A stretch of 62,291 nucleotides of DNA, filler included, from Sphacelaria rigidula (Eukaryota), in NCBI GenBank assembly GCA_964200075.2. It is 6 parts of 6 records of this genome, joined end to end, with 100 filler letters (N's around TTAATTAATTAA, not from the genome) between each part and the next. Parts side by side here need not be neighbours in the genome. Positions count along the whole stretch, not along the records: positions 10,401 to 20,699 come from CAXNAA020006762.1; positions 20,800 to 31,098 come from CAXNAA020006763.1; positions 31,199 to 41,496 come from CAXNAA020006764.1; positions 41,597 to 51,894 come from CAXNAA020006765.1; 2 more parts are not named here. One strand, given 5' to 3'. Of this stretch, positions 12,707-41,720 are shown in pieces. The translations under genes were made by a program, and so were the position numbers. The notes under the pieces were generated by a model, which worked only from the letters and a program-made list of their open reading frames with translations, did not search any database and had not been told where the DNA came from. Within the stretch, counting starts at the first letter, position 1; every line of letters begins with the position of its first letter.

Positions 12707-15700
12707 TCAGTACATTCTTCGACGAGTCCGTGGCGGGCTGCGCGCGGTATTCGTCTGAGTAGCCATGGATTCGTTAATCCACTTCAGCACGTCTTTGCTT
12801 CCCCATTTGTTGCAAGTAGCCATGTCGACGCGGCAACCGTTTTCCACTGCCCACTGGAACACTGTGAGGTGCCCCTTGTGGGCAGCGTTTAGGGTCGTAG
12901 CTTCATCCCAAGGGCACCCATTACTCCTAGCCCACTGAATCAGCTGCAGATGGCCGGACAGGGCCGCCATGGCGCACGTTTGCTCATTCCACGGGCAGGG
13001 CGGGTCTTGCGACCTGGTCCACTGAAGAACATGCAGATGTCCATTTCGCGCAGCAGCCGTGGATGTTCCCTCGCCCCATTGACAGTCCATCTGCCTCAAC
13101 AACCCCAGCACTTCCAGGTTCCCTTCCGACGCCGCTTCCTCACACGGTGCGCTTATCTTTTTCGGAAACGGGCATTTTGCATGTATCAAGAACAGCAGCA
13201 TCTCAATATCTCCACCGTTCGCTGCCGCGGCGATGCTGACCCTATCGGACAGCTTGCACCCCTGTGCCACAGCCCATTTGAGAACCTCGAAATTTCCCGA
13301 CTCGGCGGCACGTTGCGCCACCCTTCTGCCACGGCGAGCGACCCACGTGTGATCCTCGTCAAACGCTGCCTGAAGCGTTGATATATCCCCCTCATCAACT
13401 GCTTGGTCGATGGAAGCCCCATCATAAACAGGGACGAATATGTCTGCACACACGACCGGGTGTAGGGAGGGGGGAAAGGGTGTTGTCATGGTATCGCATG
13501 CTCTAGTCCTACAACGATTGAACTCGCATCCCTAAAACGCCGGAACGGAGCACGCCGGGTTTTCTCCGGACCAGGCTCGCAATCGATCACCAAGCGCGAA
13601 GCGCCCATGATATGTTCGGCGAGTCGCATGAAGGGTGAGTTGCAGGGGGGAATGGGGGGTACTCATTTGTTGCTTCCCTTAGTCGTTCGTCCATTGACCG
13701 CACCTCCTTTTCGAGACGGACCACCGTCCTTACGCCGAATAGAGATACCTCCAGCATTTAGATGCTCCGGAAGGGGCGGCAGGGAGCAAACGATGATTAT
13801 GTAGCCCACCGAAGGACAAATCTTGTCATGACAGCGGAACCTATGTTTGGCTTGAAAAGATTTGGTATTTTGTCATACTACCGTATGCTCACATTTTCTG
13901 TCAACTCATATGACAGCAGTAAAAGCGTAAAAAATTGTGCTGTCATAATGCGTGTCATAAATGGTTTCCCGGGAAAGGACTACGATCATGGGCGGGATAT
14001 TGACCCTTTTGGGACCGACTCCCCAAGTGACACGGGGTTGGCATTGTGTTAGTGAAATAAAAAGTCAGGGAGTGACCTGCCCAATCACGGCGAGGCGAAA
14101 TTCGGACACGATCGACCAGATTGGGGATTGTTACCAAATATGATGTCACTGCCAAGATCGTGTGGGGGTCCTGTCCCTGTTCCAGATAAAACGCCTCACC
14201 ACGTACCCAAAGCCCGGATGGTCGGGGAACGATTTTTCGTTTCACTTACATTCAATATAGCGCTCCAGTGATTTTCTGCGTGCTTTTTTTGGTTCGCCAG
14301 TCTATACTAGAACGTAATAATTACACTTACACATGACTGGGGGGGAGGGAGTAAGGAAAAAGCGTGCATGCCACATTATGGTCATTTTCACGAGGGCACT
14401 AAACCGATATGGGCCGTGGAACGAGAGAAGGAGCTATAGTAATGAATTCCGCCTATCCCTTTGCCGATGCCTCGCAGTGTGCAATAAAGATGTATGTAGT
14501 GGGCGGGGACGAACGCTGTGCATAAGGAGCTGATCTCCGAACCTGAGGACTGCCCAGAACGTCCAAGGGAGTATGCAGCGGCAGCTGTTGCTGCATTAGG
14601 AGAGGCACTGTACTGCATGTGCACCGTAACACCCATGCCCTTCGAAGAGAGTTTGTCGCTTGCAACAAAGAGGGGAACTCGGCCCACCCGACTACAAAGG
14701 GCTGTGTGGCAAGGTGATGGGAACAATAGTATCATCCAAAGCCACAAGTGGCGGGTGGCCCGCTGGTCGCCACATCCTGTCGAAAGCTCTCTACGGCGAC
14801 CCATACTGCTTCTTACACCTGTACATTACATCTGGAAATTACCTGATGCGCACCCCACCCTGATTACAGTCTGTACCTTCATCTGAAAATAGATTGCATG
14901 AAACTTTCGGTCTTCCTCCTAACCCTGCCGTTACATACGTAGGTTTTCAGCAACATGAAGCCAATGTTTCGTGCAGACGCCAGGCACGTCATTCCCAACC
15001 AGCCCCATTGGTCATTTTGGAAAACCGGTCCCAAAAGGGTTGAATTCCGCATCACGGTGATATCTGTATCTTCATACTCATCTTCGACGGTGTTCATGTC
15101 CCTTTTCAAAGCCCATGCCTTTCCTATCAGTCACCCAGCAATCAAGATCATCTTGATTCTTTCCCTCCTTTCAGGGCACAGTGATCTGATGCCACGATTG
15201 ACTTCTCAAGGTCTACACGTCTCACCTTGAGGTCGCCCCACGTACAATGGGAGTTACTCAGCGCGGATAGAGCCCGCCATCATAGAGAACGGCTTCATAT
15301 TTTGTTGCGCTCAATGGTCATTGAGGTTTGTGACAGTCTCAGTTGCTTTACGATTCTGCATAGTGTACTATTAACTGGTCCCGTGACGGTGTGCCCAACC
15401 GCCGTCTCCAATCACCTCATTAGATTGAACCTAGGCGTACGAGGGTTCCCACATTAAACTGTAGGTGTGAGGGGAACTAGGACCAACGTCTCCAGAACAC
15501 CATTCCCGAATCAAATTTTCACCCCTGGCCACTTCAAGATACGTCACTCAAGTCGGCCAGCCTGGCAATATCATGGATCCTGGATCATGACGCTCGAGCA
15601 GTTATTCTCAGCGGCGAGTATTGCAGAAACATTCTGCTCACCTGATGGCGTTTCGGATGGCTCCGGATCGCTCAGACGCTCTCGTTCCTCATCCTGGCTG

Positions 15701-17487
15701 CCACCTTCGGGGAAATAATCCTGAGAACGAAAACGAAGACGGGGAGGAGGGATGTGACGAGTAATGGAGGTAGAGTACGAAAGTCCCATGGCCAAGCGTA
15801 AGGTGTGAGGCCGGCCATTTCATATGGTTGCCGTCTAGGGGCGCACTCGATTTGCACGGCGGAGTTCTCATTCCCGCCGTGAAACATACGAACGCGGGCG
15901 TTCACTAGTATCTGCTCAGCTACGGCGTTCTGGCTTCGTGAATACAGAGGCAGAAGCTCAAATTTGTTCAGTTTTTCATGGGAGCACGCACATGGATATA
16001 TTCCTCGTTATTTTCTACGCGTTTCTCACACCACCTGAACGTTGTGACCGTGGTTTTGTTTTCGCTCTGTGCTCCGGAAAAATACGAAGCGTAAGGACGT
16101 GTCGACTTTGTACCAAGAAAATTCGTTCGGAGACTAACAGCGTGTGTTGGAGAAACTCACCGTGGCGGCAGCTGTAACTGGCGGATTCGGCCCTGCGGAT
16201 GAGGCTCCCTCGCTAGCACAACAGTCACCGCCTGATGCCGATGGAAAACAGTAGCGTCGTCAAGCATGCGTGGATCAGGTGATTCCTCCGCAAAACGTGT
16301 TCTCAGAGTCGACCTTGGTGTTCAGCTGCAGACGTGATATGCTGTCATCACAACCCCCGTGCGTGGAACACGGCTCTTCCTCTCCACCATTTCATGAATT
16401 CAAATCTACAGCAATTGTTTTCTTCGTGTGGGCGGACGTTATCTACTACGCAATGCTTCGAACAAGCATTTTAGGCGCGTACAGAAAGACCCGGTGATTG
16501 CTTGCTCAGCAACGGTTTGCGAATCATGAGGAGCTACTTCATAAGATTGTTTATAGAAGAAAAATATATTTAGTCCATACAAAGAAACGGTGGGCGTGCA
16601 TATTTCTGTATTCGAGTATCAGCCAAAATCTGCCTTCTTTGATTCCCGTGATGAATCACCTTCAGCATTTCATTACTTTCAGATTTATATTTGAACAAGG
16701 GACGCTCTATAGTGAAATTCCCCCTGAACACTATGGAACAGACCAGCATGCTGAAACTCTGGTCACCTTGTGATGAGGTATCCTGTGACTCGTCATCATC
16801 CAAGGAGATCACTTCCTGCGGCTCATCATCCACAGAGATCACTTCTATCTTCATCCCATCGGCGGGACCGCTACACGCCTGGTGGGTAAAACCAAGAAAC
16901 AGATTGCAGCGAGGAGGGGAGGTGCCCACACACCGAGGGAGCGGGGACGGGGAAGGGGCACTCATGATTTTGCATGCCATAGTGAGGTGGCCATTGACCT
17001 CGCATCCCTACAAAGGCGGGACGGAGTACGTTCGGTTTTTGCCAAGGGGGGGGCCACTCCTATTTCGCATGCTGTAGCTGCTGGGCCAATCACTGGATGT
17101 CCTCGAGGAGACGGAACACATTGCCAACGATGGTCGACAGTTCGTCTTCCTACTATGCGAAAGGCTACGACTAATTTATTCAGCCACAAAACCCCGTGGG
17201 GCGTCTGCCGAAATGAGTCAACGATCAACGCTCGTTGCTCTTCAAGCTTCGGAGGGGGTCTGGATCTCTGTGTACCACGTCCAAGACAGGCCTCAAGCGA
17301 GTAGAACATCGCAGTGCGTACGTGGGCCGCACTGTGTTGCCAGTCATTTGACCGCCTACTGTATACCGAAGTTGTACTCATAACCAAAAAAACGAGGGGT
17401 AAGGGATACGAGCGCTCACGATACTAGCGGGTGCTTGGGACCGGAAAGGGGGCGCTTGAGCTGGCGCCGTGGATGCAGCAGCTACAC
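12707..17487 (-). CDS. spliced ankyrin-repeat protein with acidic N-terminal region and tandem SIM-like motifs (5' end unresolved)
   Basis: Phase-compatible AG/GT exons: 17420-17487 (GVAAASTAPAQ...), 16767-16878 (IEVISVDDEPQEVISLDDDE), 16161-16231, 15642-15720 (DYFPEGGSQDEERE...), possibly 14543-14590, and terminal exon 12707-13443. The terminal exon has ~6 repeats of the type AAxxGHLxVLQWxRxxxCPWxE. Confidence 0.75.
13470..13645 (-). mobile_element. oligo(C)-ended repeat family C, 5'-truncated copy in the last intron of the ankyrin gene
   Basis: Colinear with 20825-21152 and 37255-37534 (CTCGCATCCCTA..GGAGCACGCCGGG..CCAGGCTCGCAATC..CCAAGCGCGAAGCGC). Flanked by AGGGGGGAA at 13468 and 13644. 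Confidence 0.8.
16950..17053 (-). mobile_element. repeat family C, short 5'-truncated copy
   Basis: ACTCATGATTTTGCATGCCATAGT..CCATTGACCTCGCATCCCTACAAAG..GGACGGAG, between G runs. Confidence 0.8.
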
Positions 17488-17629
17488 CTGCAAAATTTTA
17501 CAACGGGGGACGCACAGTGAGGAGTGGGAGGAGGCGTATACGAGCGTTCAAAGTCGTGACGTTGATTGTCTTGTTCCACTTCTGAGGTGTCAAGAGTGGA
17601 AACTGGTACGGAGGTATGGCGTTATGGTA

Positions 17630-19750
17630 CCGTGCATCAATCATCACGAGTGCAAAATACATCACGGTTCGAACGAACAAAGAGATTATACGGGTCGACC
17701 CCCCATGAATGTTGAATGCTAATCATGTACCAAAGAGTCACCCAGTACGACTCACGGACGGCAACGTTGCACGTTCAAGGTCATACCGCACGAATCACGA
17801 CTTGGGAATGTGTACGCTCCAAGCAGGGTCACACAAGTCAAGAATGCAAAATATGTATGAATCACGACTCCTGTATGAAGCACTGGAAGGGAACATACAA
17901 ACTTGATTCATGTCGTATGAATCGAAGGTGTGTACCACAACATTCACGTATGATTCATACCGAATAACGGAAACTGGGAAACATGCAAGCTTGATTCACG
18001 TCGTACGGATGGAAGGAGGAAATGAATGTATGATTCATGCTATCTGGAAGGGAGGAAATATGCACACTTTATTCACCCCGCATAAAGGGAAGATGAGGAA
18101 CATGTGACAGTGATTCATGCCCCATGAACCGAAGCGGAGAAACATGTACTCTTGCTTTTATTTCGTTTTTTTTATCCGTTCTTTTTTCTGTTCTCCTCTC
18201 CTTGTTTTTTTCAAGGTCGGCCATCTCTTTTTTGTGCTTTGCTTTTGTTGATTTTCCTCTCTTCCTATTTTTTTTTCTACGTCTCAGTCTACTATGTCGT
18301 TCTGTTCGACTTTCTTCTCATCCTTCGTTTTATTGTACGAGTGTTTCAGTTTTGCTTCCTTGGGTACGTCCATCATGCCATCACGGCTGGACCAATGGGT
18401 GGTAGGTTAAAGTGCCACAAGCAGTCAATCAATCAAATCAATTACTTGATTACCGTCGTGTGAATGGAACGTGAGAAACACGTGCCTATAACTGGTTCTC
18501 ACGAACGCGAGGTGGAAAACATGTGCATGGATCACGTGATGCATGCTGGATTAATCGAAGGGCAAGAATACAGCATGTATACAAGATTCACGCCGTGTAA
18601 GTGGAAGGTTTCGTACTACTGTTGATTGTTGCCTGCTGTACAGATTGTACTATGCTACGCTGTGTTGTACTGTACCGTCCGCTGACTGCAGTAGGCACCG
18701 CCGGAGCGTTTCTCGAAACTCACGCGAACACGCGGGGGGGACTCTTACAGTACCGGTGCTGTCCGTCGCTGTTCTTGTACTCATATATATATATATATAT
18801 ATTCAGGCAAAATGTACCGCAGAACAAACTTGGAAAGCAAAAGGGCCGCCAACAGCATAGCTCGGGGGAAAACACAAGTGAGAATAATCACTCGAATCGC
18901 GCAGATGCGTGCTGTGCCATGCTGTAACGTACTGTCTGCGGACTGCGGTGTGCGCTGCCGGTGTTTTGCCGAAAACTCCCGCGAGCATGCGAGGACGACT
19001 CGCGCTTGTGCTGTGTTCTTCGCAAGTGTTCGTGGTGTTGTCTACGGTACGTCCAAGCCAACTTCGCCACATAACACGACATGAAGCTACAAAGGCTGTC
19101 GAGAGTACGGCTTGGGAAAATAAATGCCTACAACAAGCGCTCTGGGCACGCGGACGCGTTTGTTATCCTACAGTTGATGTGTTGCGTGCGAGTACAAAAT
19201 TCGAAATTGGGTTTATGGCGGATTTGGCTCTCCAAAGTTTCTCGACCTGTATGTTCTTTTGCCTAGCCCATCTGCAAGAAGGCCGCGCCACCGAAGAGTC
19301 GTGCTTCATGAGACGACAGGTGGGGAACAACATCGTCTCGTTATCTGTATCGTATGAGCAGAAGGTGGGAGCATGTACACATGATCCACGCTGCATAAAT
19401 TCAAAGTGGGAAACATGTACGCTTGATTCATCTCCTATGAATCGAAGATGGGGAACCTGTACGTATGGTTCACGCTGTTGCATGAATGCAAATTGCATAA
19501 AACGTGTATGCTTGATCCACCTCGTATGAATGGAAAGTGGGGGACATATACCTATGATTCCCCTCGTATGAATGGAAGGTGGGGAACGTGTGCCTGTGTT
19601 TCATACTGGATGAACAGACTTGGGAGGCATGAACCCATCATTCGTACCATACGAGTGGAGGGTAGCAAACGTGTACCTTCGACGGTGTACCGCACGAATC
19701 ACGATCCAGATGTCTTGTGTCACAACTTGTGTACAGTTCGTATGATTGCT
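17630..19750. repeat. degenerate 42-bp minisatellite with internal palindrome, interrupted by insertions
   Basis: Unit ~ACATGTACGCTTGATTCACGTCGTATGAATCGAAGGTGGGAA, clearest at 19370-19600 and 17890-18150. GATTCA-N7-TGAATC stem in the best units. Confidence 0.8.
18155..18444 (+). mobile_element. 3' end of a non-LTR retroelement with (AATC)n tail, inserted in the minisatellite
   Basis: Pyrimidine-rich tract ending CAGTCAATCAATCAAATCAATT; the minisatellite resumes in register (CTTG on both sides). Confidence 0.6.
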
Positions 19751-20207
19751 TCGTTCAAATGTTGAATTCGAGTCGAACCAAGATTTTAGTCGCCCGAACC
19801 GTGAAATAGATCATGTCTGCTCGCAGACAGCGCTGATTCTTCATCTACACGAGGAATAAACTCGCTTGAACTAGGGGAACTACGCCATGCACGTGCATGT
19901 ATACCATAAGCAAGGGGAAGATTAAGAACATCATTCTAGACCGCTCCCAGTGGACAACCATTTCCTCATCTTTTCCCCAGCCGTTTAGTTTCGGGGCATG
20001 TTGACGTTCTTGCTCCAGGACACGGAAAATCATCGTCGCTTGCCTTGACCACTGTTCACCATCTACCTGAGAGAACTCTGGCACATTTTCTAGAGCAAGG
20101 TTACTTTCACAGGATGCGCAAACAATCACTTGTAGAAACTCTGATTAAGAGTGGAATAAAGGAAGGACTCCTCAAGACGTATCTGAATAATCGTAGGGGA
20201 CGGAAGG

Positions 20208-20325
20208 TTGGGCGAGGGGCTCCATATCGCTGAACGACCCCCCCCCCCGCCCCCAGGTGGCCGGAACCTCATTATGGGGCAGTAGGAGGGGGGGGGGTAC
20301 CCCCCTGATCGATGGATGATGGCGA
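20208..20325 (-). repeat. inverted partner of the 11467-11615 motif
   Basis: Reverse complement reads CGCCATCATCCATCGATCAGGGGGGTACCCCCC...GGGGGGTCGTTCAGCGATATGGAGCCCCTCGCCC. Confidence 0.7.
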
Positions 20326-20699
20326 TGGTGCTGTACTGCACCGCACGTACATGTCGGCAGCGTTCGCCTGCGCAGGGTATAGAAATGCACTGGCCCAACA
20401 TGAACCTCACGTAGACTTCATTTGGGAACTGCCACTACCTCAATGTTGAATACTCCTTGTGCCTGCACCACGTCCACAACATTGCCCTTTGCAACCTCTC
20501 CCTGTCTTGTGTCGCAGTACAGTATGATGGCGACATGTAGAGATACGCATTGTGTGAGCACGGTTGTCTGCCCAAACGCGGGCAAAGTACACGATCATGT
20601 ACTATTCACGTTATACATATCTATATTACACACGTCGGACACATCAGTTTCTATGCGATCCAGCTCCGGCAGATGAAGTATGAACACACTTGTGTACCT

Positions 20700-20799
20700 N
20701 NNNNNNNNNNNNNNNNNNNNNNNNNNNNNNNNNNNNNNNNNNNTTAATTAATTAANNNNNNNNNNNNNNNNNNNNNNNNNNNNNNNNNNNNNNNNNNNN
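20700..20799. other. artificial contig linker
   Basis: N44-TTAATTAATTAA-N44. Confidence 0.97.
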
Positions 20800-20824
20800 C
20801 GACCCCCCGCAAACCGGGGGGGGT

Positions 20825-21152
20825 GGGGGGGGGGGGGGGGGGGGGTGTTTTCATGATCTTGCATGCCATAGTCATATGGCCATTCACCTAACATCTCTAC
20901 AAGGCCGGGACGGAGCACGTCGGGTTCTCGCCAGACTAGGTTCGCAATCAATCACCAAGCGCGAAGCGCTGTGGTGTTGGGTGTTCGGCGAGTCGCAAGA
21001 AGGGTTAGCGACATCCTGCTGAGATTTTTCGGCCCGAAGCGTACTGATTATCTTGCATGTGGATGACAGCCTACAATGAGTTGCTTCATTTTCTGGTATT
21101 GCCACTTTCAGAGACGGCCACGGATTCCGCACTGCCTCATGGGTGTCTCATC
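20825..21152 (-). mobile_element. repeat family C, longest copy, with long poly-G/C end
   Basis: G21-TGTTTTCATGATCTTGCATGCC...GCCTCATGGGTGTCTCA; matches 37255-37534 plus a ~30-nt internal segment. A further fragment lies at ~21360-21400. Confidence 0.85.
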
Positions 21153-21797
21153 ATTTAAACACTACATAGTGTGACCATCCCCTTTGCGCGGAGTCGAGGT
21201 TCTCCCACCCCGCAGAATATGATCCAGCTCGACCACCATCATGGTTGTCGCAAAAAAACGCAAGAGCGCTATAAACCCTGGTGACCTGGTTGTCTAGCTT
21301 ACGCAATGAGTGGCGTGTTTGACAGTGTCATTGCCAACCGACGCCAACCCCATACTGTAGGGTGTCCATCCCAACAAAGCCAGGACGGAGCACGGGGGGG
21401 GCTGAGGCAATTGTTGCACGAAGGAGCCACGTTGAAAATGTCGCTGCATGCAGAAGTATCCTTACGAGTGCTCTGGGCATCAATGCCATTACTATGAAGT
21501 CCCTGTCCAAACCACTCGCCACCGTTTCGACCCATACAGGTTTTTATTACTAATGTGTCAAGTCGTGTACCACGCTCGTGACCCCATATTTTCGTGCAAC
21601 TGAATACTCCCCCCCCCCCCGTATCGTACGATCAGACGAGAGTACTCAAAAATATGAACAAGGCCAAACGTTTACGCAATCCACTATTGTAATACCGTAA
21701 TTCCCAACACAATGACAAACCCCAAGGCAGCAGCGTGGCAACGTCATCAGCAATATGACGAAAAGTACCCCACCGCGCTTGCAACGCCAGTACTCAC

Positions 21798-24350: not shown

Positions 24351-24360
24351 GGAACCGGTC

Positions 24361-25286: not shown

Positions 25287-25710
25287 AACATCTGATTATC
25301 AAAATGGGGTTGAACAAAAAAATGAGGCTCAACTCAAAAGCAGTGCTTTCCCTGACCTAAAGTCATGACCAATGACTTTCATATGGATGACCTCATCCCT
25401 CCCGACCTCCCTGAAACTATTTCGTGGGGGTTCCCAGTTTTCCGTTTCCCCAAAGGGTATGTGCGAAAGCACGATTCATGGGCCAAAAAACGTCTCTCGT
25501 TTCACCCCGAAATCGAGGCAAAAATGTGCTTTCGCACATACCCTTCGGGGGAACGGAAGGCTAGAAATCCCCCGAAATAGTTTTAGGGAGGTCGGGAGGG
25601 ATGGGGGGGTCCATATAAAAGTCATTTGTCACGAATTCAGGTCAGGGAAAGCACGGCTTTTGAGTCGAACCTCATTTTTTTTTCAACCCCATTTTCGAGA
25701 ATCGGCTGTT
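25287..25710. mobile_element. MITE with ~140-bp imperfect TIRs
   Basis: AAAATGGGGTTGAA..TGAGG.TC.ACTCAAAAGC.GTGCTTTCCCTGACCT..CCCTCCCGACCTCCCT.AAACTATTTCG mirrored at the right end; a related fragment lies at 26267-26350. Confidence 0.8.
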
Positions 25711-29700: not shown

Positions 29701-31098
29701 GTAGCACCAGCCGTTGGTTGTGACTGGTGTGCGGGTGCACCGATGACTGCGTTTGAAGGGCACGCCGCCATATGCGCGTAGTGCGCCACACCAGCAGCGG
29801 CACTCTCTTTTGAATGCGGCAGTCAGCATCGTCATGAGTTTTGGAACGATGATGAAAACACCGCCTCGTCGTCTTTTCTTTATCGTTGGTTTCATTGGTG
29901 CCTGACTTACCCCCCTTTCTCCTTCCTGCCTCTACGTTTCGCCTGACAATTCGTAGGGCAATCCCGCCGGTAGTGTCCGAGTTTGTTGAAAGCGAAACAC
30001 TCGATGCCTGCTGCCTCAGCAGACAGTGCAGTGCTGGGTCCAGCAATGGACAAACGAGAACCCGAGCGAGCCACATGATCAACATAATAGCGAATGACTG
30101 AGGCTCAAAGTTTCTCGAGCCCAAAATTCTCGTCGACGTGTATGTTGGGTTATGCCGGCATATTCGGCAGGTAGGCCCTGGATAATTATGTCTTCGTATC
30201 TAATAACGGACACCGGCTCGCCGAGGACGCGCAGGCGATTCCGATCAGTGTCCTGTTCTCGGAAGTAAATTCAAGGGTCTGCCCCATGCTTCATGCGACG
30301 TGACATTAGAGAGCGAGTAGTAGTATGGATCGCTTCCTTTGTTCGACCAAAATATTATGCTTCTAGGTCCTTCCATGCTGCATGCCCATCTCCTGAGATC
30401 GTCGTACCAACAGTGGTATCTTCACCACTGTCGGACTCGTAGACTTCTTGCTCGAATTGAGCAATAACAGGCTGCGCGGGCCCTGATGTTATAAGGTAAA
30501 GTAAAGAAAACAGCTCTGTTTGAGCCTTGGCCCAAGCTCGGTTTTTTGCGGCGGAAGCATTATCAGTAGGCGGCCGCTTACTCTTGACCAGTGATAACAC
30601 GTCAGATGCATGCAGGCTCAGCAGCACTCGCAATTTAGAACGCCAGTCTCTAAATTTGGCAAGGTCATCCCCGTCAAAGATGTCCAGCAGGCACATTGTC
30701 TGTGTAACACCTTTCTGCGCCTCGGTCATGTTGCTTTCGGGACGTATGACTTGTGCCCAAAGAACCGCACTCCAGTCAGTGTGCTGACCAAGTCACAACT
30801 CGTCTGTATAGACGAGCTCACGTCGCTTTGTGCTAACCCTAAGCACCTCTCGTTCTGTATAGACGAGCTGTCAACACCTGCTAGAAACAGCCAGCTACAC
30901 TGTGCTGGAATCCGCAAACACAAAAAGTCAATGTGATGCTCCAGTGATGAAGCCGCACTCCGTTCAGTGTGCGAACCCAACACACCACTCGTGCTGTGAC
31001 ACATTCTACGATAGCACCCCCTCAAAAAGTGCATGGTTTTGGGAGTCAAAACCTTCACGTAAATCGAAATGGGAAAAGCCGAGCACAACGAGAAGCTG
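26472..31098 (-). mobile_element. Ty1/copia LTR retrotransposon, degenerate, RT domain missing, 5' LTR beyond contig end
   Basis: gag (30355-30729, FDGDDLAKFRDW), zinc knuckle CFAFNKLGHYRRDC (~29955-30000), protease LLVDSG (29078-29530), integrase WHRRLEH..CDTC..IGDMMGP..LRADKGGEY (28422-28940), RNase H QSTMEAE..DN..QIADIGTK (27274-27660), PPT and 3' LTR. Many stops and frameshifts. Confidence 0.92.
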
Positions 31099-31198
31099 NN
31101 NNNNNNNNNNNNNNNNNNNNNNNNNNNNNNNNNNNNNNNNNNTTAATTAATTAANNNNNNNNNNNNNNNNNNNNNNNNNNNNNNNNNNNNNNNNNNNN
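31099..31198. other. artificial contig linker
   Basis: N44-TTAATTAATTAA-N44. Confidence 0.97.
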
Positions 31199-31278
31199 CG
31201 CCCCGGCTTTGAAGGGATGCGAGGTCAATGGTCTGATGACTATGGCATGCATGATCATGAGTACACCCCCCCCCCCCC
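31199..31278 (+). mobile_element. repeat family C 3' end with C13 tail
   Basis: CCCGGCTTTGAAGGGATGCGAGGTCAATGG..GACTATGGCATGCATGATCATGAGTACA-C13. Confidence 0.85.
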
Positions 31279-31434
31279 ATTAGTACGGCATATGTGCCTT
31301 CTACAGTGGTCGCACCTACCGCGGCACCCATCTTCTGTGGTTTTGTTTGTGTTCCTCGTTGTACCTGTACTACCTACCTCCTGCGCTAACTGTAGAGCCT
31401 GATTAACACGCACATCATGTAACCTGTGCCTCAG

Positions 31435-34400
31435 GCCGATCCCGAGACATTCCAGTTCGGTAACCACTGGCCTACTTTCATCGAACTGGCCAATCGTGCT
31501 TTGGAAAGCAGAGACCCAGCAGTGCACGCCAAGGTAGGTTGGCGATGAACAGCGGACTCCATGGGTCAGAGGGGATTACGGGACGGCGGGCACAGGTAGA
31601 CGGCAACTGGGTGTTACTGTGAGTGTGTATTTGGCATGCTAGTATATTGGTCGACCGCAAACTGGCACGGGTGACGTTTTCAACGCGCATATGATAAATT
31701 CTTGTCGACACTCGAGGCAGACAGGACGTCATATCGTCAGCTATAATGGTTCCGAGGAGAGATGAAAACACTCAGGGGGCGACTCGATACTGCGTGACAT
31801 TGATCGGCCGGGTTCTCGTGTTAACGAGACGGTTGAACCTGTTTCTTCACGGTTTCCTATCGGCAATGGTTCTCCATTTTATTGCCGATCCTTTGGGAGA
31901 CAAACTTTCCGTTTCGTCGATCGTTTTTTCTTTCAGGCCGTAACACTGCACTGGGTCATGTTCGAGAAGGCAATGGGCATGAATGCCGCGGATCTGTGCG
32001 AAGCATTGCTCGCCCATACTCTGCGCTACTTTGAAGCAACTGTGCACGTGGTATCCGATCGAGTACCCCACCCGCACACCAATGCCGATGGCGAGAAGGG
32101 TGATGTCGTCAGTGGGGGAGTCGGGAGAGACCGCATGATGATAGTCGGAGATTCTGAGCTGATATGTGCCGCACGGCAGGCCAGAGCTTTGCACGGAATG
32201 CTCATGACCATCCACGAGGTAAGTTGCACTCGAATGACGTTTTGTCCTCCTAAAATACTGTTGCCTGGTGTAGTTCTAGTGGACGACATGTAGCGTCCCT
32301 TGTGTGCCAAGCAACCGGAGCTTGTGTGTGTCGTGCTTGAGGTTGAGCCATTGAGACCTTACTCGTCAAGCCTTCAAGAGTGATATTTTCGGAGAATAGC
32401 GTACACCATCCATTGATTATTTTGATTGAACCCTCCCGCTGTGTGTGATGTAATTTTACACTTGTACGAATCTTGCAGGCGTTCCAGCATTTACCAGAAC
32501 GTCGCATATGGGGTATCGTTGAGAGAGTTTTCGCTCTATTGGAGAAATCCGCAGATCGTTTTCAACACAGCCAAAGCGAGACAACTTTCGAAAGTCCAAC
32601 AGCGCCGGTGAACAACGCCGCCGACGTCTGCAGAGACGGCAACAAAAATTCTACCGGTGGAACAACACCGGTTGATCCCTGGCTCTCAGAGGATGAGCCC
32701 TCCTGGAACTTGCCCGCTGCGCTTCTGCCTGCCCACTTCCTCGCTGTTGCTGGTTCCGTCGACCAATGGTTTCCGTCTTGGCTGAGGGTCTTGCCGACTG
32801 GAAGACTCGTGCGCGCCGTGAACAACTCACGTCTCGTGGCTGCCATGATCCAACGATGCGACGGGCAGGGAAGAGCTCCCCTCCACCTAAGCGGCCAAAC
32901 TCGCCACCCTTCCTCCGATCATCTCGATGCTGTGGCGGGTGTTCCTACCTCCTCGCCTAACCTGAAAGATACTGCCGTGTCGGTAGCAACCAGGGCAGCA
33001 CCGCGTGTTTTGCGGCATAGGCTAAGCGTGAGTACCATGACCCCCGTTGCCGGTTCGTTCGGGTGGAATGGTGGCGCAACGCCCGCCGCCCCGATGGGGC
33101 GTGTGTTGTGGCTCTCCTTGGGGGAGTTGGATCGTGCGTTGCTGCTGCAGTCTCTATCGTTTCTCGGAACACTTGCAACGCACTGTCGCGGCGCCATGCG
33201 ACCGGTTCCGCCTCTATGTGGGGCTCCTGTTGATGAGGCTGGTGACGAAGCAGGACGGTGCGAGGGGGAACAAGACGATTTGGCCAAGGCGTGCGAGAGG
33301 GGGAGTAAGGACAGGCATCGGACGTCAGGTGGTAGTGGAGATCTAGAAAATATTGGATCCGAGGGTGGTTTCGACCAAGGAAGAGAGGTGCTGGGGGCGC
33401 TCGTTCGGTGCGTCCGCAGAGAGTTCGGCCGGGTGGCCTCCGAGACCGACGCACCGTCCGCTCTTCTGCGACAGGCGGAGACGGTAAAAAGGTCGAGGGA
33501 TGTGCGCTGGGTTGCGCTGGAACACATTAGGCGGCTAGCGAGGGCCACGGTGGGTACGAAGCCAACGCCGTTCGCACCCGAGTGCATCGATGGGTTGCTG
33601 TCTACGTTAAACGTCAACGACTCCATGGTTGAACCAGAACGCGGCACGATCATCGATCATGGCAGCCATAATTTTCATGGTGCTCGACGTCGACATGCTG
33701 GCCTGGAGCACGACCCTGCCATTCTCGAGGCACTGGCTGACGTCGCCGGTGTGCTTCTGTCGTCGCGAGGCTCGTCGGATGGGTTCTTTGTCCAGGGCAA
33801 GGCGGGAACGGAGGCATCTCGCTCTCTTCAGACGCTCGTCAGATTTACCGCCCAGCTCGCACGAGAAGCCTGCTTCTTGTTGCAGGATATGGGAAATCGC
33901 GACAACAGAATGCACGATGGACGTCACCTTGAGCGTGAAGGCGAGGGGAGCTCAATATTGACACCGACCCCATCTCACTATAAAAGACAGCTTGCTGTCG
34001 ATTTCGCGTGCGTGCTCACTCAACTCTCAGGTTGCACTCCCGTGCAGCGCGCGGCCGGATGGAGGGCGCTTTGGCAAAACCGTTTCCCGCAGACCATGGC
34101 CGAGTACGTAAACGAACTCGGCCGTTGTCGTTGTGATTGCATTCCTGGCGAAGACACTCACAGGGGAAGCCGGAGCCCCAATTACCGCCTTCCCCGAGCG
34201 GGTGCCTGCGGGTGCCCGTGCGACCTAAGCGATTGCAAACAGAACGAGGATCTTCGCCGACGCCTGGTGCTGTCTCTCGCGGAGTGGGCGCGAGACATGT
34301 CAGGTCTGAATGCTCTACGCCGCGTTGGCCTGGTACAGCCGTGTGCGTCCTACCTCTCGCAGGAGGTCGCGCTGCGCCATTTGTTCCCAAGCACCCGAAA

Positions 34401-37256
34401 AGAGTGCCCTGATCAACGCGCTCTTGCTCTTGTCGCCAGGCTTGCGCTCTGCCGTGAGGGCCTCGACGGATTGGTGTGCCAGCACGACGGTGTGGTCGAT
34501 GGGGTAGATCAGGGGCTTCACGAGCTTGGCCAATCAGAGAACATTGCGGCAATGCTTCAATCCGCTGCGCCAGAGCTTGGTCCCTGCGTTGCCGACGGTA
34601 GCGAGGAGGGAAATGCTGGGCCTCTTGTAACGCGCAGGGCTGTGAGGGGAGACGTCATCGGAGAACACATCGGAGATTTGCGATGTTTGGACTTCGTGCG
34701 GCGCCTGACTTTGTCTAGATCCGGGTGGAGGGTAGGCATGATGGGCAGTGAAGTAGCGCAGGACACGCAACACCGATGGGTGCAATGGGCTGTTGCATGT
34801 GCGCTATCGGGGCAGAGCAGCATCGGGGGAGAATACGAGGGGTGTGAAGAGTCAGAACAGCTTCAAGATTATACTTCTGTGATATCTGAGGACATACGTT
34901 TGGTGGGCCTGAAGCTCGTGTCGGAGCTTACAAACGATCTTACTTCGGCAGTGGAGATAGAGGTGAGGTGGTCGGTTAGCTCAGAGCTACAACGAAACAC
35001 GAAGGAGGTTTTCGAGGCGCAGACAGCGAGCATGAAAGTGGGATCGATTAATGCGATGCTCACGAGTAAGCCGAGGGCGACACCGCTTCAAGGCGAAGCT
35101 ACACCGCAACCCATGGACGTGGAGTCGGGTGAGAACGTTTCCACGACTGACGAGCTACATGTGGATGGTGATGCTGACGTACCCGACGGTATCCTGGACC
35201 CTGTAGCCCTCGCACGCGCGCGCCTACTGGCCTCCCTTAGCTTGATCGGTGGTCCTGGAGAGGCTCGCCACATCCGTTTTCGACAGCTCCAACGTGCACA
35301 GGCTGTGGCGGGAGGAGTTGCTGCCGCACCCGGCGGTAGTACATGTCAGCCACCTGCCTGGCAACAAGCTCACTGTTGTGATTTGACATATTTTCCAGCG
35401 CATCATCTTCAAGACGAGGAGTGGTTTGCCGCTGCAGCCTCGTGCGTCCCGACAGTAATTGCGAGTTTGGCCAAGCCAGGCTACCAAGTGGACCGAGGAA
35501 AAGCGGCCTTCGCCTTGCTCAGAGAAGCAGCGACGAGAGACTGCCCTCATCTTCTGGGCGGTCAGGTGGCAGATGAGCACCTGCAGCTTGTTTCGCCAGC
35601 CGTCGCTGACTGCAGCATTGAAGGCGGTAGGGTGAACGGCCGCCGGCATATTGTCAACAACCACAGTGGCGATCGGCCCACTTGCCAGCGCAGTGACAGC
35701 TGTTCCAACTTAGATACGGGCGCCGTCGTTGGGTCTTTGAGCTTCTCCTACGCCTGCGGTCTGGGAGTGGCCGCTGAGAACTCAAAACAATCATTCAAAC
35801 AAGGAATGAGCATGACGTTAGGGACGGCGGCGGCGTTGACGTCATCTTGGCCGCTATCCGGGGTGGCCGGAACTTCCCATTCTGCTGCGCCCGCTCCCGC
35901 ACCTCATGAATATGCGGATTCGTCGGCTCATGTGCACTGCGATTGGTTTGCCGTCGTAGTCTTTCTGTTGTCGCGAGGAGACGGTGAGGCATCAAGCGAG
36001 CTTCTTGGAAATCTCGCTCGTGGTCGCGTCCCCCGAGCAGCCATTGTGTGGCCGCTTGCTGGCCGTAATTTCGCAATTACGAAGACATCAGTTGCCGAGG
36101 CTGTGTCGCCCTCGAATATCGCGCGTACTAATACCGTCAGTGGTACTCTTGGAGGCCACAAGTCTAGCCCCGAACGAGAGATGACTAGCGATTACCTGAG
36201 CGAGAGTGATGCGGTACCGCCTCACAACCCCCCGTCACCATCATGCGACCATCGCACAGTAGTACGAGCGGAGACTAGCCAGGGAGACCCACCGCTGCTT
36301 CTGCTTGCCGCGCTGGTCGAAGAGCTGGTGGAGGAGGAATTGCCACTCCTGACTGCAGCGATGAGGGTGGCCGGCTGGGCGGTTGCGCCTCTTGCCGTGC
36401 GATGGATGTATCAGTGCATGCTAGGCGTGGTGGATTGGGCTGGGGTTGTTGCATACATCTCCCTGGCATTGCTTCGAGGAGCAGAGTTCCAGGTAGGACG
36501 TGGGCACGGACTTATGGGAGGGGTGGGAAGGAGGGGGCGGCGTGTTCTGGGTATGTTGTTTGTATTTGACTGCCCTGTATAGTAAGTAGGGTTGGAAGCA
36601 GGCCACCAAAAGTAGCGAAGGTCTCTCATGACCGCTTGCGGGTGGCATGCTTGCCGTGGTCGTGTGTGCACGTAGTATTTCGTCCGCAGTTTGTTTTTTC
36701 GTGCGCTGGTTTTTCATTCGTGTGGTGAAGTGTCATATACCGGGGAAGACGAGAAAGTGGCAAGGGCGTTCGTCCTGCAACCTACCGACGAGGTTAATGG
36801 CGACGCGACTCGGTACTGTTGCTGAACTTTTCGAGTACACCCCACGGTAGCAAAATGATACGGGTAACCCCTTGAAGGGCTGTGTACCCGTCTGGTGTTG
36901 GGCAACGGAGGATTGACCTTGGCTCAATACTCGCGGTCGACAAACAAGAAGGATGCTGGCCTCACGTGTTTGCCTAGACCCAGCACCTTGATCGCTGTTT
37001 TTCAACTTGTCGTTTTTGTTCTGTGTTTTGTCGAAAACAACAGGTGTACTTCGTGGTTGCCGTACTGCAATGCACTCAGTCTGCGGTTGTAGAGGCTGCT
37101 TCGCTAGGACGAGATCTGACCAACATTCTCGGTCGCGGCGATGCTCTCTCGAGATTTGACGTGCCGACGGCGCTGCTCTACGTGGAGCAGCTGGCGGATC
37201 GACATCAGGATCGATGCGTGGGAGCTATTCGGGATTATTTCTTTACGGATTCGTGA
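31435..37256 (+). CDS. TBC1D32: BROMI / broad-minded (TBC1D32) homolog, ciliary protein, 5'-partial; exons 31435-31533, 31937-32218, 32479-36492, 37044-37256
   Basis: All-phase-0 AG/GT exons. The N-part (NHWPTFIELANRALESRDP..HLPERRIWGIVERVFALL..AHFLAVAGSVDQWFPSW) and the C-terminal TBC-like part (HCDWFAVVVFLL..VEELVEEELPLL..RWMYQCMLGVVDW..GAEFQVYFVVAVL) align by eye with BROMI-family motifs. Confidence 0.82.
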
Positions 37257-37534
37257 GGATGTACTCATGATCTTCTATGCCGTGGTCATCAGACGATTGG
37301 CCTCGCATCCCTATAAAGTCGGGACGGAGCACGCAGGGTTGTCGCCGAACCAGGCTCGCAATCAAATCATGAAGCGTGAAGCGCCGTGATGTGCTCGGCG
37401 AGATTATTCGGCCCGAAGCATACTGATTATCTTGCATCTGGATGACAGCCTCCAATGAGTTGCTTCATTTTCTGGTATCGCCACTCCCAGAGACAGCCAC
37501 GGGTTCCACAATGCCTCATGGGTGTCTCACCGCA
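37255..37534 (-). mobile_element. repeat family C copy with 10-12 bp target-site duplication at the TBC1D32 stop codon
   Basis: TTACGGATTCGT at 37243-37254 and again at 37535-37546. Confidence 0.88.
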
Positions 37535-38285
37535 TTACGGATTCGTAGTGGGAGAATTGGTTTGGTGGGATTTGTCGTAGCGACTGTGTAGTGCTTCTTG
37601 TATTTGTTTTGTTAGTGTTGATGATGATTAACTTGTTGTCATGGGGAGCAACTTGTGTTTTCCTCATATTTCGACGACCGTCGAGTGGTGTTTAGTCACT
37701 GAGGCTTTTTCTTGGGTTTGATTCAGATATGTTGAAGAACATCTATTATTGCCAACTTTATAGAGAGGACAGAAATTATTGAGTAGCGATGTACTGGCGC
37801 TTGTTTCACTGACGTGGAAGCATCGGTCGCGGAAGACATGAGCCGTCGTACATATCCAAGTATATATGCTGAACTGTACGACTGCCGTATAGGACCAGCT
37901 CTTGTAGATTCGTGTCTCGTTGCTGTACATACCACCCCCCCCCCCCTGCCTCTGTCAATGTCACGCTCGAACATACTGTAGGCATCGTCCTTTTCGGCAA
38001 GTGCGGTGTGGAGTGTTGTGGACTTGCGGCTCTAAATACACAACTCGATAGCCCTTCGGGTGAAGCTCTGTACCGCGGGGTAACCGATGGTCCGATGTGT
38101 TACGGGGTTCGATGTGCTGCCCCCGTATGGCCAAGTCGTGAACAGACTTGGGTCAACCTGTTGGCTATATTCTGTACCATGAGGTTTAGTGAAAAGAGAA
38201 GTCATGTGTGCCAAAGTCAACTAAGGTTGGCGGAAAACAAGACGGAGTAACCTGAGGAGTGAAGGGTTTGTGCCCCGTGCTTTAA

Positions 38286-38517
38286 CCCTCTTGGAACCGT
38301 TGATGGAAAAATGACGATTTACAATTGACGTTTTCTTGGGCAAGACATGGTTGTTTTTCTGCAACTGTTGATGATGCATCCCACCAAGACGGTGCACCAC
38401 TCTAATTCCAAGTATACTAATGTGACAGATTCGTGCACCGAAGTCGAAGTGACGTTTCCCGTTGACGAAAGCTCGCATATGGGAGTTTGTGCTGTTTTTC
38501 GCAAAGTTCCAAAAGGG
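38286..38517. mobile_element. piggyBac-like MITE
   Basis: TTAA|CCCTCTTGGAAC ... GTTCCAAAAGGG|TCAA; an inverted homologous copy lies at ~45565-45834. Confidence 0.7.
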
Positions 38518-38884
38518 TCAAGGGTGTTGAGTGGAGAGTCGGCATTGGGTCAGCAAGGAAAATGTGATGAAAATTGCTGTTTTATCATTCCTGGCTGTAC
38601 TGCTCGTACTACACTATAAAAACGGGGCCGCGAATGGTTGCGTAGCAAAGAAGGGTTGCATAGCTTTTTCGTCTCAACGGCGAGAGAAATTGGGCGCATT
38701 TTTTGTTTTCTGCTTCCATTCATTTCTGTGCATGGCAGCCGACCAGAAAAGGAGTGCACATTAACCTTCCAAGTGCAGACACGCCTTGAGTTCAATCCGC
38801 TGGGATATCGCCACACAGACGAGTTTCATGTGGTCGATAGCGTCGTGTTGCCTTGCACGCGAAATCCCTTCATCGTTCGAGTGG

Positions 38885-39486
38885 TGAACGATGCTACGAT
38901 AGGGTTGCACTTTTTGAGCGAGAATGTTTCTCGGCATCATTTTCACTTGAAAAATACTGAAAATGATTCCGATTCACGAAAAGGCCCCTGTGTGCATCTC
39001 CATGTCCTGTCCCCGGAGATTTGGGTTGTACAGTAAGCCCCATTTATGTGGGCCCCTACAAGAACGAGACCGGGAAACAAAAAGTGCAACCCCTATCGTA
39101 GCACCGCTCGAGAGTGTCTGGTTTTCGAGTCTTCGGGTACTATAGATCCGAGTGATAACAGAAACCTCGCAGCAATTGTCTTTGAAGTCTGGGACGGCCC
39201 CAGCTACGTGGGCATGACATTGTTCGAGAGTGATGCTACGGTAGGGGTGCACAAATATTTTCTGAGGTTAGAAATGTTGGGAGCACTTTATCTCATGCAA
39301 AACACAACCCATGAAAATATGATTAAGTACGCCAGGATCACTACTTCGATATGCTGGGGATATCCCGAGAATGAATTTGCAAACGGGGATGCCCTGATCC
39401 ATATTTTTCTGCATCTAGAATCTTTACGAGCCCCTGAACTAGACATGATTTCGCGAAAAAAGTGCACCCCTACCGTAGCATTGCTC
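38885..39486. mobile_element. cluster of MITE family B copies (38885-39110, 39228-39486)
   Basis: 25-bp TIR GAG(T/C)(G/A)ATGCTACGGTAGGGGTGCAC; further ends at 39685-39715, 40766-40895 and 41434-41496. Confidence 0.8.
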
Positions 39487-39540
39487 TGGTGATATAATAA
39501 AACACTGAACCCATTCCTTCGCTTACTTTCGTGGAAAATC

Positions 39541-40190
39541 CAAGGTTGTGTTCTATAGGGTACGGGTATGTTCTTTAGGGTATGAGACTCATTATACGAT
39601 TTACAGAAGTATCTGGGACCGGTATGAAAGTCTCACAGAAATTACAAAACTGTCGGGTACCGGGTCGAAAGTCTTGCAAAAATAAGCAATGCTACGGTAG
39701 GGGTGCACTTTTTGCGCAGCATGTTGTCTGGTTCATCTGCGCCACCAGAACTTGTCGGGTGTGATACATGTATGGGAGGCTTACAGAAAAACCGTACCGG
39801 CAATCGGGTATTTTTTCAAGAGCATACCCGCGCTCCGGGTCCGGGTAAACATTCTGTACAGAACTCACAGAACTGTCGGGTAAGAGTATGGGAGGCTTCA
39901 GAAATCACGAAACTGTCGGGTAGGGAATAGAGGTCGCACAGAGAACCGTACCCGCAATCGGGTATCTTATCAGGAGCATACCCGTGCCCCCTGGTAACGG
40001 TACAGGAGGCTTACAGAACTCACAGAAGTATCGGGTAAGGGCATGAGAGTCTTACAGAGATGACAGACCTGTCGGGTACCGGTATGAAAGTCTTAGTCTC
40101 ACCAAAGTCACAGAATGGTGAGGTCAGGTAATATACCCGGGAAAATTCCCCGGGTATACAGAAAACCGTACCCTACAAAAGACGACCTTG
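39541..40190. mobile_element. non-autonomous TIR element with internal GTACC/ACAGAA-rich tandem repeats
   Basis: TIR CAAGGT(T/C)GT(G/C)TT(C/T)T(A/G)TAGGGTACGG at both ends; internal repeats CTTACAGAACTCACAGAA..TCGGGTA. Confidence 0.7.
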
Positions 40191-40350
40191 GTATCATCGT
40201 CACCCCTGTGGTGGGCCATACGCCACTACAGTGACGAACTGCAGATGATAATTCACGAAGACTCTGAACGGCTTCATGGGGTTGATAGGGATAGACTACA
40301 CGAACACTCGCAGGAGTAAATGTGCACGGAATTGTCAACGTCTATCGGCT

Positions 40351-40494
40351 TCACGTAGACTCCCAGAGAGCACATGAAGGAGCATTGACGGCTGCCCGCT
40401 CTCTGGAAGCCCTTCGGCACGCGACAAAATCGCCGACGGCCTTGACGACTTTCGGTGGAAACTCATGCTCTGTGCCGTGCATGTCGATAAAGGG
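40351..40494 (-). CDS. possible terminal exon of an alpha/beta-hydrolase-like protein
   Basis: CCCCAG acceptor, then PFIDMHGTEHEFPPKVVKAVGDFV...stop, resembling an esterase catalytic-His segment. Upstream exons were not found. Confidence 0.25.
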   Translation of the reverse strand, partial: PFIDMHGTEHEFPPKVVKAVGDFVACRRASRERAAVNAPSCALWEST

Positions 40495-41496
40495 CTGGGG
40501 TTTGATTACCACGACACAATCATCATCAACGTAAATGACGTGCGTCTTGCTACTTGATCTTCAGGTGACGCAGATGAACCGCCCCCGCAAAAGCCACCAC
40601 TCGAGTCTGGGGGTGATCCATCTTGACGGTCTGCAGTGCTGCTCATGTTTCGTGTTTCCTCTCAGCAGTACGCGGTTACGTCGTATCCTGTCATGTTCCA
40701 AACTAAAGAACTTCCACTTTCCAACGTTGAATTTTCATTAGCGTGCAGTGTTGAGTGGAGGAAAAGGGGGTGCACACTTTTTTCTGAGGCTCCGCACATG
40801 AAGAGCCGCTCGATGACAAACATCTGGGCCTTATAATAGTGTGCAGCCTCAGAAACCTCCTGGACTAAAAAGTGCACCCCTACCGTAGAATCACTCACAC
40901 ACGCACATGCACACGCACGCAAGAAAAGATCCGAACGAGCGAGGCGGGCTGCCGCAACACAGGGCCGTTTTTGTTGTTGTTGGTCGCCACAGTAATCAGT
41001 GGGAAGAATGCGTGCCCTCATCATTTTCTCGTGCATTACTACTAATTGAAATAACGGAAGCAAAAGTTGGGAATTGTCGATATTTGGGGTGGTTTTGTGG
41101 GGGTGTTTCTTGACCGATTAACCTTTTTTCGTCCGAAGAAGCAATCGCATCAGATCCGCTCATCTCCCGAAACAAGCGCAATGTGTGACCAACAATTGAA
41201 TAGCCAGCCAAGGGTCTGTTGAAAATATATTTCGGGACACGTAGGCCCCAAGATCGAAAATTCGAGTTTCTGAACGGGGGGGGAACACCCAGCCCGCTGT
41301 CCCCTAGGTTATCGCCGAGGCGTTGTTGACGGATGCGGTCAGCTGCCGTGTACAGAGATCCTTCGCATGGAGACCGCTGAGATGACGAGCACATCGACCC
41401 TCCAAGCTCATCTCACCTACCATGATTACATTTGAGTGATGCTACGGTAGGGGTACAGAAATAATTTCTGAGGTTAGAATTGTTAGGAGCCCCTTA

Positions 41497-41596
41497 NNNN
41501 NNNNNNNNNNNNNNNNNNNNNNNNNNNNNNNNNNNNNNNNTTAATTAATTAANNNNNNNNNNNNNNNNNNNNNNNNNNNNNNNNNNNNNNNNNNNN
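41497..41596. other. artificial contig linker
   Basis: N44-TTAATTAATTAA-N44. Confidence 0.97.
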
Positions 41597-41720
41597 TGTG
41601 AGCCTGGTCCGGCGAAAAGCCGGCGTGCTCCGTCCCGGCTTTGTAGGTATTCGAGGTCAATGGTCTTATGACTATGGCATGCATGATCATGAGTACGCAC
41701 ACCCCCGCGCCTCTCCTCCC
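41597..41720 (+). mobile_element. repeat family C 3' portion
   Basis: GAGCCTGGTCCGGCGAAAAGCCGGCGTGCTCCGTCCCGGCTTTG..GATCATGAGTACGCACACCCCC, followed by CTCTCCTCCCTCCAG. Confidence 0.85.

What the first reader, a model, noticed from the sequence alone, without database searches (positions are those of the whole stretch)
13470..41720. Oligo(C)-ended, 5'-truncated ~300-bp retroposon-like family associated with C/G runs and intron acceptor tracts
Seen: seven copies in four contigs (13470, 16950, 20825, ~21360, 31199, 37255, 41597). Six share one fixed end, ...GCATGCAAGATCATGAGTACA, usually followed by a C run; the other end is variably truncated (~85, ~170, ~280, ~310 nt). One copy has a 10-12 bp TSD. 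No clear TIR, tRNA A/B boxes or poly(A). Copies at 13470 and 16950 lie ~25 and ~70 nt upstream of predicted AG acceptors of the ankyrin gene, with the C run on the sense strand. The copy at 31199 is ~155 nt upstream of a TBC1D32 acceptor, and 41597 runs into CTCCCTCCAG. Inference: a non-autonomous element mobilised by target-primed reverse transcription that primes through oligo(C):G pairing instead of poly(A), and so lands in or supplies polypyrimidine tracts. It may be an already catalogued unclassified brown-algal repeat.
Basis: partly seen in the sequence, partly recalled or inferred. Interest (0 to 1): 0.72.

Follow-up and report, generated by a model that had tools for sequence, protein, structure and literature searches.

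The report
C-tailed short retroposon and its LINE
This is a very common short jumping element of a probable brown alga that borrows the enzymes of a longer retrotransposon and inserts into runs of C, a pairing already described in the seaweed Ectocarpus; its closeness to splice sites is modest and mostly follows where C runs lie.

Summary
The repeat is real but longer and less novel than reported. It is a ~560-nt non-coding retroposon (six window copies, not seven; roughly 20,000 in the genome by extrapolation). Its 3' end is fixed (27 of 32 uncut insertions keep it, 1 of 32 keeps the 5' end) and it sits in C runs with variable target duplications. I found the autonomous partner: an AP-endonuclease/reverse-transcriptase LINE whose last 52 nt are 83% identical and which also ends in (C)n. 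This matches the published Ectocarpus pair RTEX-1/2 and RTEX-N1 (607 bp, C-rich TSD, 60-bp 3' end 83% alike); sequence identity to that library could not be tested. C runs also precede the 5' junction (12 of 26 against 1 of 26), so they are largely the target, not a delivered tail. RNA contigs confirm the two ankyrin-gene acceptors. In 540 kb of exon-centred DNA, 6 of 37 short-element ends (5 sites) lie within 150 nt of an acceptor (1.1 expected), but element-free C runs are 2.2-fold enriched there, LINE ends are not (0 of 39), and tails sit 62-134 nt from the AG.

The parts
13482..13644 (-). Short element, 5'-truncated copy (163 nt), inserted directly behind the C-rich tail of a LINE 3' fragment
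   Evidence: nhmmer profile positions 423-584, E 2.4e-46; junction shown
13465..13481 (-). C-rich tail/target run, ending about 20 nt before the acceptor AG
   Evidence: sequence
13444..13445 (-). Splice acceptor of the ankyrin-like gene, 38 nt from the element's 3' end
   Evidence: joint 13443/15642 CT..AC in contigs of X1-X3, not in X5
13659..13767 (-). 3'-terminal fragment (109 nt) of the partner APE-RT LINE; its C-rich tail is 13645-13658
   Evidence: LINE profile E 4.4e-25; blastn to L013
16958..17044 (-). Short element, 5'-truncated copy (87 nt); C8 at the 5' junction (17046-17053), C-rich run after the 3' end
16878..16879 (-). Splice acceptor 80 nt from that copy, with its own T-rich tract next to the AG
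   Evidence: joint 16877/17419 CT..AC, cut +1; sequence
20847..21396 (-).
   Evidence: profile positions 44-584, E 1.8e-173
31199..31265 (+). Short element 3' part, cut by the contig start; C14 tail at 31266-31279
37260..37534 (-). Short element, 5'-truncated (275 nt), no C run, flanked by a 12-bp target duplication (37243-37254 and 37535-37546)
41597..41696 (+). Short element 3' part, cut by the contig start; C-rich run 41697-41723 followed by AG (acceptor untested)

Best explanation
A ~560-nt non-coding, non-autonomous retroposon of the 'stringent' SINE/LINE type. Its last ~70 nt are homologous to the last ~66 nt of a co-resident ~5-kb LINE with one APE + RT reading frame whose stop codon lies 5 nt before a (C)n tail. 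The LINE protein binds this shared 3' end in trans (inferred), nicks the G-rich strand opposite a genomic C run, and the exposed G 3'-OH primes on the RNA's terminal C's (inferred), which gives a fixed 3' end, variable 5' truncation and variable duplications that start with the C run (shown). The C run is mainly the target; the element adds a few C's. It is the local counterpart of Ectocarpus RTEX-N1 / RTEX-1,2. A modest excess near acceptors mostly follows the sense-strand excess of C runs there; the acceptors are older than the insertions (inferred from conserved kinase, kinesin and DEAD exons).
For: 27 of 32 uncut insertions keep the 3' end, 1 of 32 the 5' end. LINE: RVT_1 E 4e-28; 71-75% identity to relatives, two of them full-length APE+RT proteins; 1596 first-look candidates; fixed 3' end plus C run. 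Shared end 55 of 72 columns, last 52 nt 43 of 52. C5+ run at the 5' junction in 12 of 26 short and 21 of 32 LINE copies against 1 of 26 and 1 of 32 controls. Duplications with 4 or more non-C bases in 11 of 56 insertions against 1.3 +/- 1.1 in shuffled pairs. 15 of 84 insertions start within 40 nt behind another element's 3' end. Ectocarpus supplement: RTEX-1/2 single EN-RT ORF, (C)n 3', C-rich TSD; RTEX-N1 607 bp, 60-bp 3' end 83%. Element-free C6+ runs 2.25-fold enriched before acceptors.
Against: Clear duplications in only 3 of 25 short copies (copies are ~86% identical to their consensus). No RNA 3' ends were seen, so C:G priming is inferred. The short element's acceptor excess is not fully removed by the C-run correction (P 0.04 for 6 ends, 0.10 for 5 sites), and it differs from the LINE (6 of 37 against 0 of 39, Fisher P 0.011). 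RTE-X clade membership and identity with RTEX-N1 were not tested by sequence.
Confidence: 0.85

Rival explanations
1. Same retroposon, but with a real preference for, or retention at, acceptor regions, where its C tail supplies or strengthens the polypyrimidine tract.
For: 6 of 37 short-element ends within 150 nt upstream of acceptors, sense, against 1.10 expected (P 0.001); residual P 0.04-0.10 after C-run correction; at 13470 the tail lies 18-38 nt from an RNA-supported AG; one more case (C5567, 74 nt from the exon match) was dropped by the acceptor filter.
Against: 31 of 37 ends are not in that zone; LINE ends 0 of 39; pooled 6 against ~5 expected after correction (P 0.38); mirror excess at donors on the antisense strand (5 of 76 against 2.4, P 0.10); tails 62-134 nt from the AG; 2 of the 5 sites are at contig starts.
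Confidence: 0.2
2. A non-autonomous Penelope-like (Chlamys-type) element: the 52-nt 5' direct repeat and tandem copies would be pseudo-LTRs.
For: 5' 52-nt repeat of a near-3' segment (50 of 52 columns); tandem and nested copies; PLEs make pLTRs and target microsatellites (PMC8557442 passages).
Against: The shared 3' end belongs to an APE-RT LINE, not a GIY-YIG element; the repeat copies an internal segment, not the terminus; Ectocarpus Chlamys-1 ends in (A)n.
Confidence: 0.04
3. The oligo(C) is added to the RNA without template (for example by a CCA-adding enzyme acting on a tRNA-like 3' fold) and delivered to sites that had no C run.
For: Both ends fold into a closed stem plus two hairpins followed by one purine and C's; 3' runs are often longer than the 5' ones.
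Against: C runs at 5' junctions show pre-existing targets; tail interruptions are mostly T (20 T, 10 A, 7 G; LINE 17 T, 6 A, 7 G), not CCA-like; fold z only -1.4 and -1.9.
Confidence: 0.08
4. A non-autonomous DNA transposon (MITE) or Helitron.
For: None specific; other TIR-like repeats occur in the window.
Against: Strong 3'/5' asymmetry, variable duplication length 9-16 nt, homology of the fixed end to a LINE.
Confidence: 0.02

Closest known systems
RTEX-N1_Ec32 (Ectocarpus sp. 7; PMC12477816, main-text passages and supplementary files 3 and 4 read)
   Same: Non-autonomous, ~600 bp (here ~560), C-rich TSD, ~60-bp 3' end 83% alike to the autonomous LINE (here 43 of 52 nt, 83%), can be in tandem, 5' head of unknown origin, thousands of copies (3812 + 2304 there).
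   Different: Copies here are old (median 86% to consensus) and perhaps more numerous (~20,000 by extrapolation); a 52-nt 5' repeat and ~305- and ~510-nt length classes are not in the rows I read; no similarity of the 5' body to the LINE 5' end found here (weak homology noted there). Body identity untested: the library FASTA is not readable here.
RTEX-1_Ec32 / RTEX-2_Ec32 (RTE-X LINEs, 5.5-5.9 kb)
   Same: Single EN-RT ORF, (C)n 3' end, C-rich TSD; among the Ectocarpus LINE rows read only these end in (C)n (RTE: (CAA)n, CRE: (CA)n). Nearest named relatives of this RT are Ectocarpus proteins (52-61%).
   Different: All 22 LINE stretches examined here are broken by stops or frameshifts (longest open stretch in the RT region 338 aa); clade not tested by phylogeny.
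Stringent SINE/LINE pairs (eel UnaL2 and others; PMC3747384 passages)
   Same: SINE and LINE share a 3' tail with a putative stem-loop and end in a simple repeat.
   Different: The repeat is (C)n; the shared tail is the end of the LINE's coding sequence rather than a 3' UTR; no Pol III box pattern found.

Membership tests
Non-autonomous LINE-dependent retroposon | Fixed 3' end, variable 5' truncation | tested here: met
   27 of 32 against 1 of 32
Non-autonomous LINE-dependent retroposon | Variable-length TSD | tested here: met
   11 of 56 against 1.3 shuffled, 9-16 nt; only 3 of 25 for the short element; 12 bp at 37255
Non-autonomous LINE-dependent retroposon | 3' end shared with an autonomous LINE in the same genome | tested here: met
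   55 of 72 columns; LINE
Non-autonomous LINE-dependent retroposon | No coding capacity | tested here: met
   longest stop-free stretch 56 codons in six frames of the profile consensus
SINE in the strict sense (Pol III) | tRNA/5S/7SL-derived head with internal A and B boxes | tested here: not met
   no tRNA, no Rfam match at gathering score, no A/B box regex match (patterns recalled from memory, simple test)
RTEX-N1_Ec32 family | ~600 bp, C-rich TSD, ~60-bp 3' end ~83% to RTEX LINEs | tested here: met
   ~560 nt, 83% over 52 nt
RTEX-N1_Ec32 family | Sequence identity of the body to the library consensus | not testable with these tools
   the paper's .fa supplements cannot be read here
RTE-X clade LINE (partner) | Single ORF with AP endonuclease and RT, (C)n end as in the Ectocarpus RTEX rows | tested here: met
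   LINE copies cover all of P0002 (APE + RT, 1360 aa) by tblastn; RVT_1 E 4e-28, Exo_endo_phos only weak on a fragment, E 0.022
RTE-X clade LINE (partner) | RT groups with Repbase RTEX sequences | not testable with these tools
   no labelled RTEX reference held
Penelope-like (Chlamys) element | GIY-YIG/RT partner and terminal pLTR | tested here: not met
   partner is APE-RT; the 5' repeat copies an internal segment

The most novel reading that the evidence does not exclude
The last 66-72 nt of LINE and short element form a closed RNA domain (terminal stem plus two hairpins) written into the LINE's last codons; it is the recognition element and also stalls or releases the RT, which explains why 17 of 34 LINE 3' fragments are 62-72 nt long; and the short element, unlike the LINE, is preferentially kept just upstream of acceptors, where its C tail feeds the polypyrimidine tract of brown-algal introns.
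Probability: 0.15. Interest if true: 0.6.

Novelty: new member of a known kind. Interest (0 to 1): 0.27.

Why it matters
It is probably among the most abundant repeats of this genome (about 1.4% of gene-centred DNA) and shows that the C-tailed LINE/short-element pair described in Ectocarpus occurs more widely (related C-tailed LINE ends in three metagenome contigs). C:G-primed retrotransposition offers a mirror image of L1's poly(A):T priming and is testable, but the kind is published. The link to splice acceptors, the part that would be new, is small and mostly explained by target density.

Tried and rejected
Penelope/Chlamys reading: rejected (APE-RT partner). tRNA or Rfam origin: none. CCA-type tail addition: tail interruptions not A-rich. 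Covariation of the 3' fold within families: none (consensus energy -0.82 kcal/mol; 0 two-sided changes in my 10-pair structure, 500 of 500 shuffles as high; MAFFT misaligned the first hairpin between families). A second LINE family in this genome closer to the short element's tail: not found among 30 RT loci and the other loci held, not searched genome-wide. Homology of the short element's 5' body to the LINE 5' end: none in 8 LINE 5' regions, hits were inserted copies. A stricter TSD score gave 5 of 56 (one spurious) against 0-2. No listed run is on record as RNA; X1-X3 are RNA by guess and show spliced joints; the high summed depth over element copies is not evidence of expression level. Twenty further exon regions could not be fetched, so the acceptor test rests on 225 exon matches. 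Earlier scan findings: none. Literature searches for a splice-site link or poly(C)-tailed LINE mechanism ('polypyrimidine' and 'orientation' absent from the PMC12477816 main text) found nothing specific; the library lacks most subscription papers and Repbase reports.
Full report
Observation. The window is six joined contigs of about 10.3 kb (10401-20699 is contig C6762 of a 244-Mb assembly). The family is real: the copies match one another at 73-89%, and a genome search gave 5571 first-look candidates, 40 scored. A profile built from 18 long genomic copies finds six copies in the window: 13482-13644, 16958-17044, 20847-21396, 37260-37534 on the minus strand and 31199-31265, 41597-41696 on the plus strand. 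The two plus-strand copies start at the first base of a contig, so their length says nothing on truncation. No tRNA or Rfam family lies in the window.

Anatomy. Alignment of 30 genomic copies gives a unit of about 560 nt: a 52-nt 5' segment that repeats a segment near the 3' end (50 of 52 columns), a unique body without a reading frame above 56 codons, and a fixed end followed by one purine and a C run of median 5. For an unbiased sample I took 154 stretches (540,272 nt) chosen for kinase, kinesin or DEAD-box exons. They hold 45 short-element insertions (1.4% of bases; about 20,000 genome-wide if the density holds). Of the 32 not cut by a stretch edge, 27 keep the 3' end and 1 keeps the 5' end. 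Copies are a median 86% identical to consensus (28 alignments of 100 nt or more).

The partner. Upstream of two copies lay the second half of a LINE reverse transcriptase that ends in a similar sequence and a C run. This LINE has 1596 candidates in the genome. In 22 stretches fetched around its RT it shows a shared 3' end and ragged 5' ends, reaching about 3.1 kb upstream and 2.05 kb downstream of the anchor, about 5.1 kb in all. The RT matches RVT_1 (E 4e-28), and the copies cover the whole of a 1360-aa APE + RT relative, P0002 (73% identity). Three relatives end in the same residues as this frame, whose stop lies 5 nt before the C run, so the shared tail is the end of the coding sequence. 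Short element and LINE share 55 of 72 terminal columns, 43 of the last 52. A 109-nt LINE end lies in the window at 13659-13767, and copy 13470 is inserted in its tail. Of 23 metagenome relatives whose 3' regions I printed (of 79 loci), the three closest end in the same hexamer, a G and a C run; one of them, a second LINE type, carries a short-element-like fragment right behind its tail.

Tail or target. A run of 5 or more C lies after the 3' end in 18 of 26 short and 26 of 32 LINE insertions, and within 30 nt before the 5' junction in 12 of 26 and 21 of 32, against 1 of 26 and 1 of 32 at a control position 100 nt further out. Duplications with at least 4 non-C bases were found in 11 of 56 insertions (3 of 25 short, 8 of 31 LINE) against 1.3 +/- 1.1 in shuffled pairs; they are 9-16 nt and mostly begin with C's. 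15 of 84 insertions begin within 40 nt behind another element's 3' end. Shown: the site is a C run and is duplicated. Inferred, by analogy with L1 priming (established knowledge): the endonuclease nicks the G-rich strand and the G end primes on C's at the RNA's end. Tail interruptions are mostly T, which speaks against CCA-type addition.

Splice acceptors. RNA-like contigs of three runs (one study; RNA by guess) join the exons of the ankyrin-like gene with CT..AC ends, and the DNA-like run does not. The acceptors lie 38 nt (13444) and 80 nt (16878) from the 3' ends; the second has its own tract next to the AG. In the exon-centred sample, 208 of 224 acceptors passed a position-weight filter. 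Within 150 nt upstream, on the sense strand, lie 6 of 37 short-element ends (5 sites) against 1.10 expected (P 0.001; 0.005 for sites), but 0 of 39 LINE ends against 1.16. C runs free of elements are enriched in the same zone 2.25-fold (C6+, 25 against 11.1). With that correction P is 0.04 for 6 ends, 0.10 for 5 sites and 0.38 for both families pooled. On the donor side, antisense ends show a similar mild excess (5 against 2.4, P 0.10); zones where the element's body would point into the exon are empty, as geometry demands. The six tails lie 62-134 nt from the AG. One further case was dropped by the filter; two sites are at contig starts; exons outside the three domains were not masked. So a small excess is real, most copies are elsewhere, and supply of the tract is plausible only at 13470.

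3' fold. The last 72 nt (short) and 66 nt (LINE) fold alike, a closing stem around two hairpins, with z of only -1.4 and -1.9; 1 of 17 differences falls in 22 hairpin columns (P 0.009; 0.058 for substitutions only; stems picked after the fact). There is no covariation within families. Across relatives the first hairpin keeps pairing through changed letters in L254 and L259 (read by eye, two sequences). 17 of 34 LINE 3' fragments are 62-72 nt long, the size of this fold. Suggestive, not shown.

Known relatives. PMC12477816 (main-text passages; supplementary rows) describes RTEX-N1_Ec32, a 607-bp non-autonomous element with C-rich TSD and a 60-bp 3' end 83% alike to RTEX-1/2_Ec32, single EN-RT LINEs ending in (C)n; it is the most abundant family there. 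The match in size, tail, TSD and partner is close. The library FASTA could not be read, so identity of the body and the RTE-X placement are untested. PMC3747384 (passages) describes shared 3' tails with stem-loops as typical of stringent SINE/LINE pairs. PMC8557442 (passages) was read for the Penelope rival and PMC5753468 (passages) for the clade list. Searches found no paper on a splice-site link.

Verdict. Interest 0.27.

Noticed in passing
LINE 3' fragments in the exon-centred sample, e.g. L104, L123, L136: 17 of 34 LINE 3' fragments are 62-72 nt long, matching the shared terminal fold: a truncation hot spot or a separate ~65-nt mini-element.
   Followed up: partly
short-element profile positions ~74-82 and ~274-284: 5' ends cluster, giving ~510-nt and ~305-nt classes; the first cluster lies just behind an internal C5, which suggests microhomology with the target or separate master copies.
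   Followed up: partly
L259:2640-2805: A second C-tailed LINE type, close at its C-terminus to Ectocarpus protein P0006, is followed directly by a diverged short-element-like 3' fragment.
   Followed up: partly
window 9299-9568 and 9967-10240; related copies at 7950-8525 and 59905-60230: Long inverted repeats (97% over 274 nt) of another dispersed family, MITE-like.
   Followed up: no
window 25287-25433 and 25564-25710: 147-nt inverted arms, 82% complementary, 130 nt apart.
   Followed up: no
window 8529-8796, 39227-39486, 41431-41496: Another dispersed repeat (~270 nt, 85%).
   Followed up: no
window 31005-31035; also behind the copy in L029: Another repeat with an internal C run followed by an A run recurs near these elements.
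   Followed up: no
   Followed up: no
window 61808-61939 and 61078-61248: A 44-bp tandem of three copies and a low-complexity AAC/GAC array.
   Followed up: no
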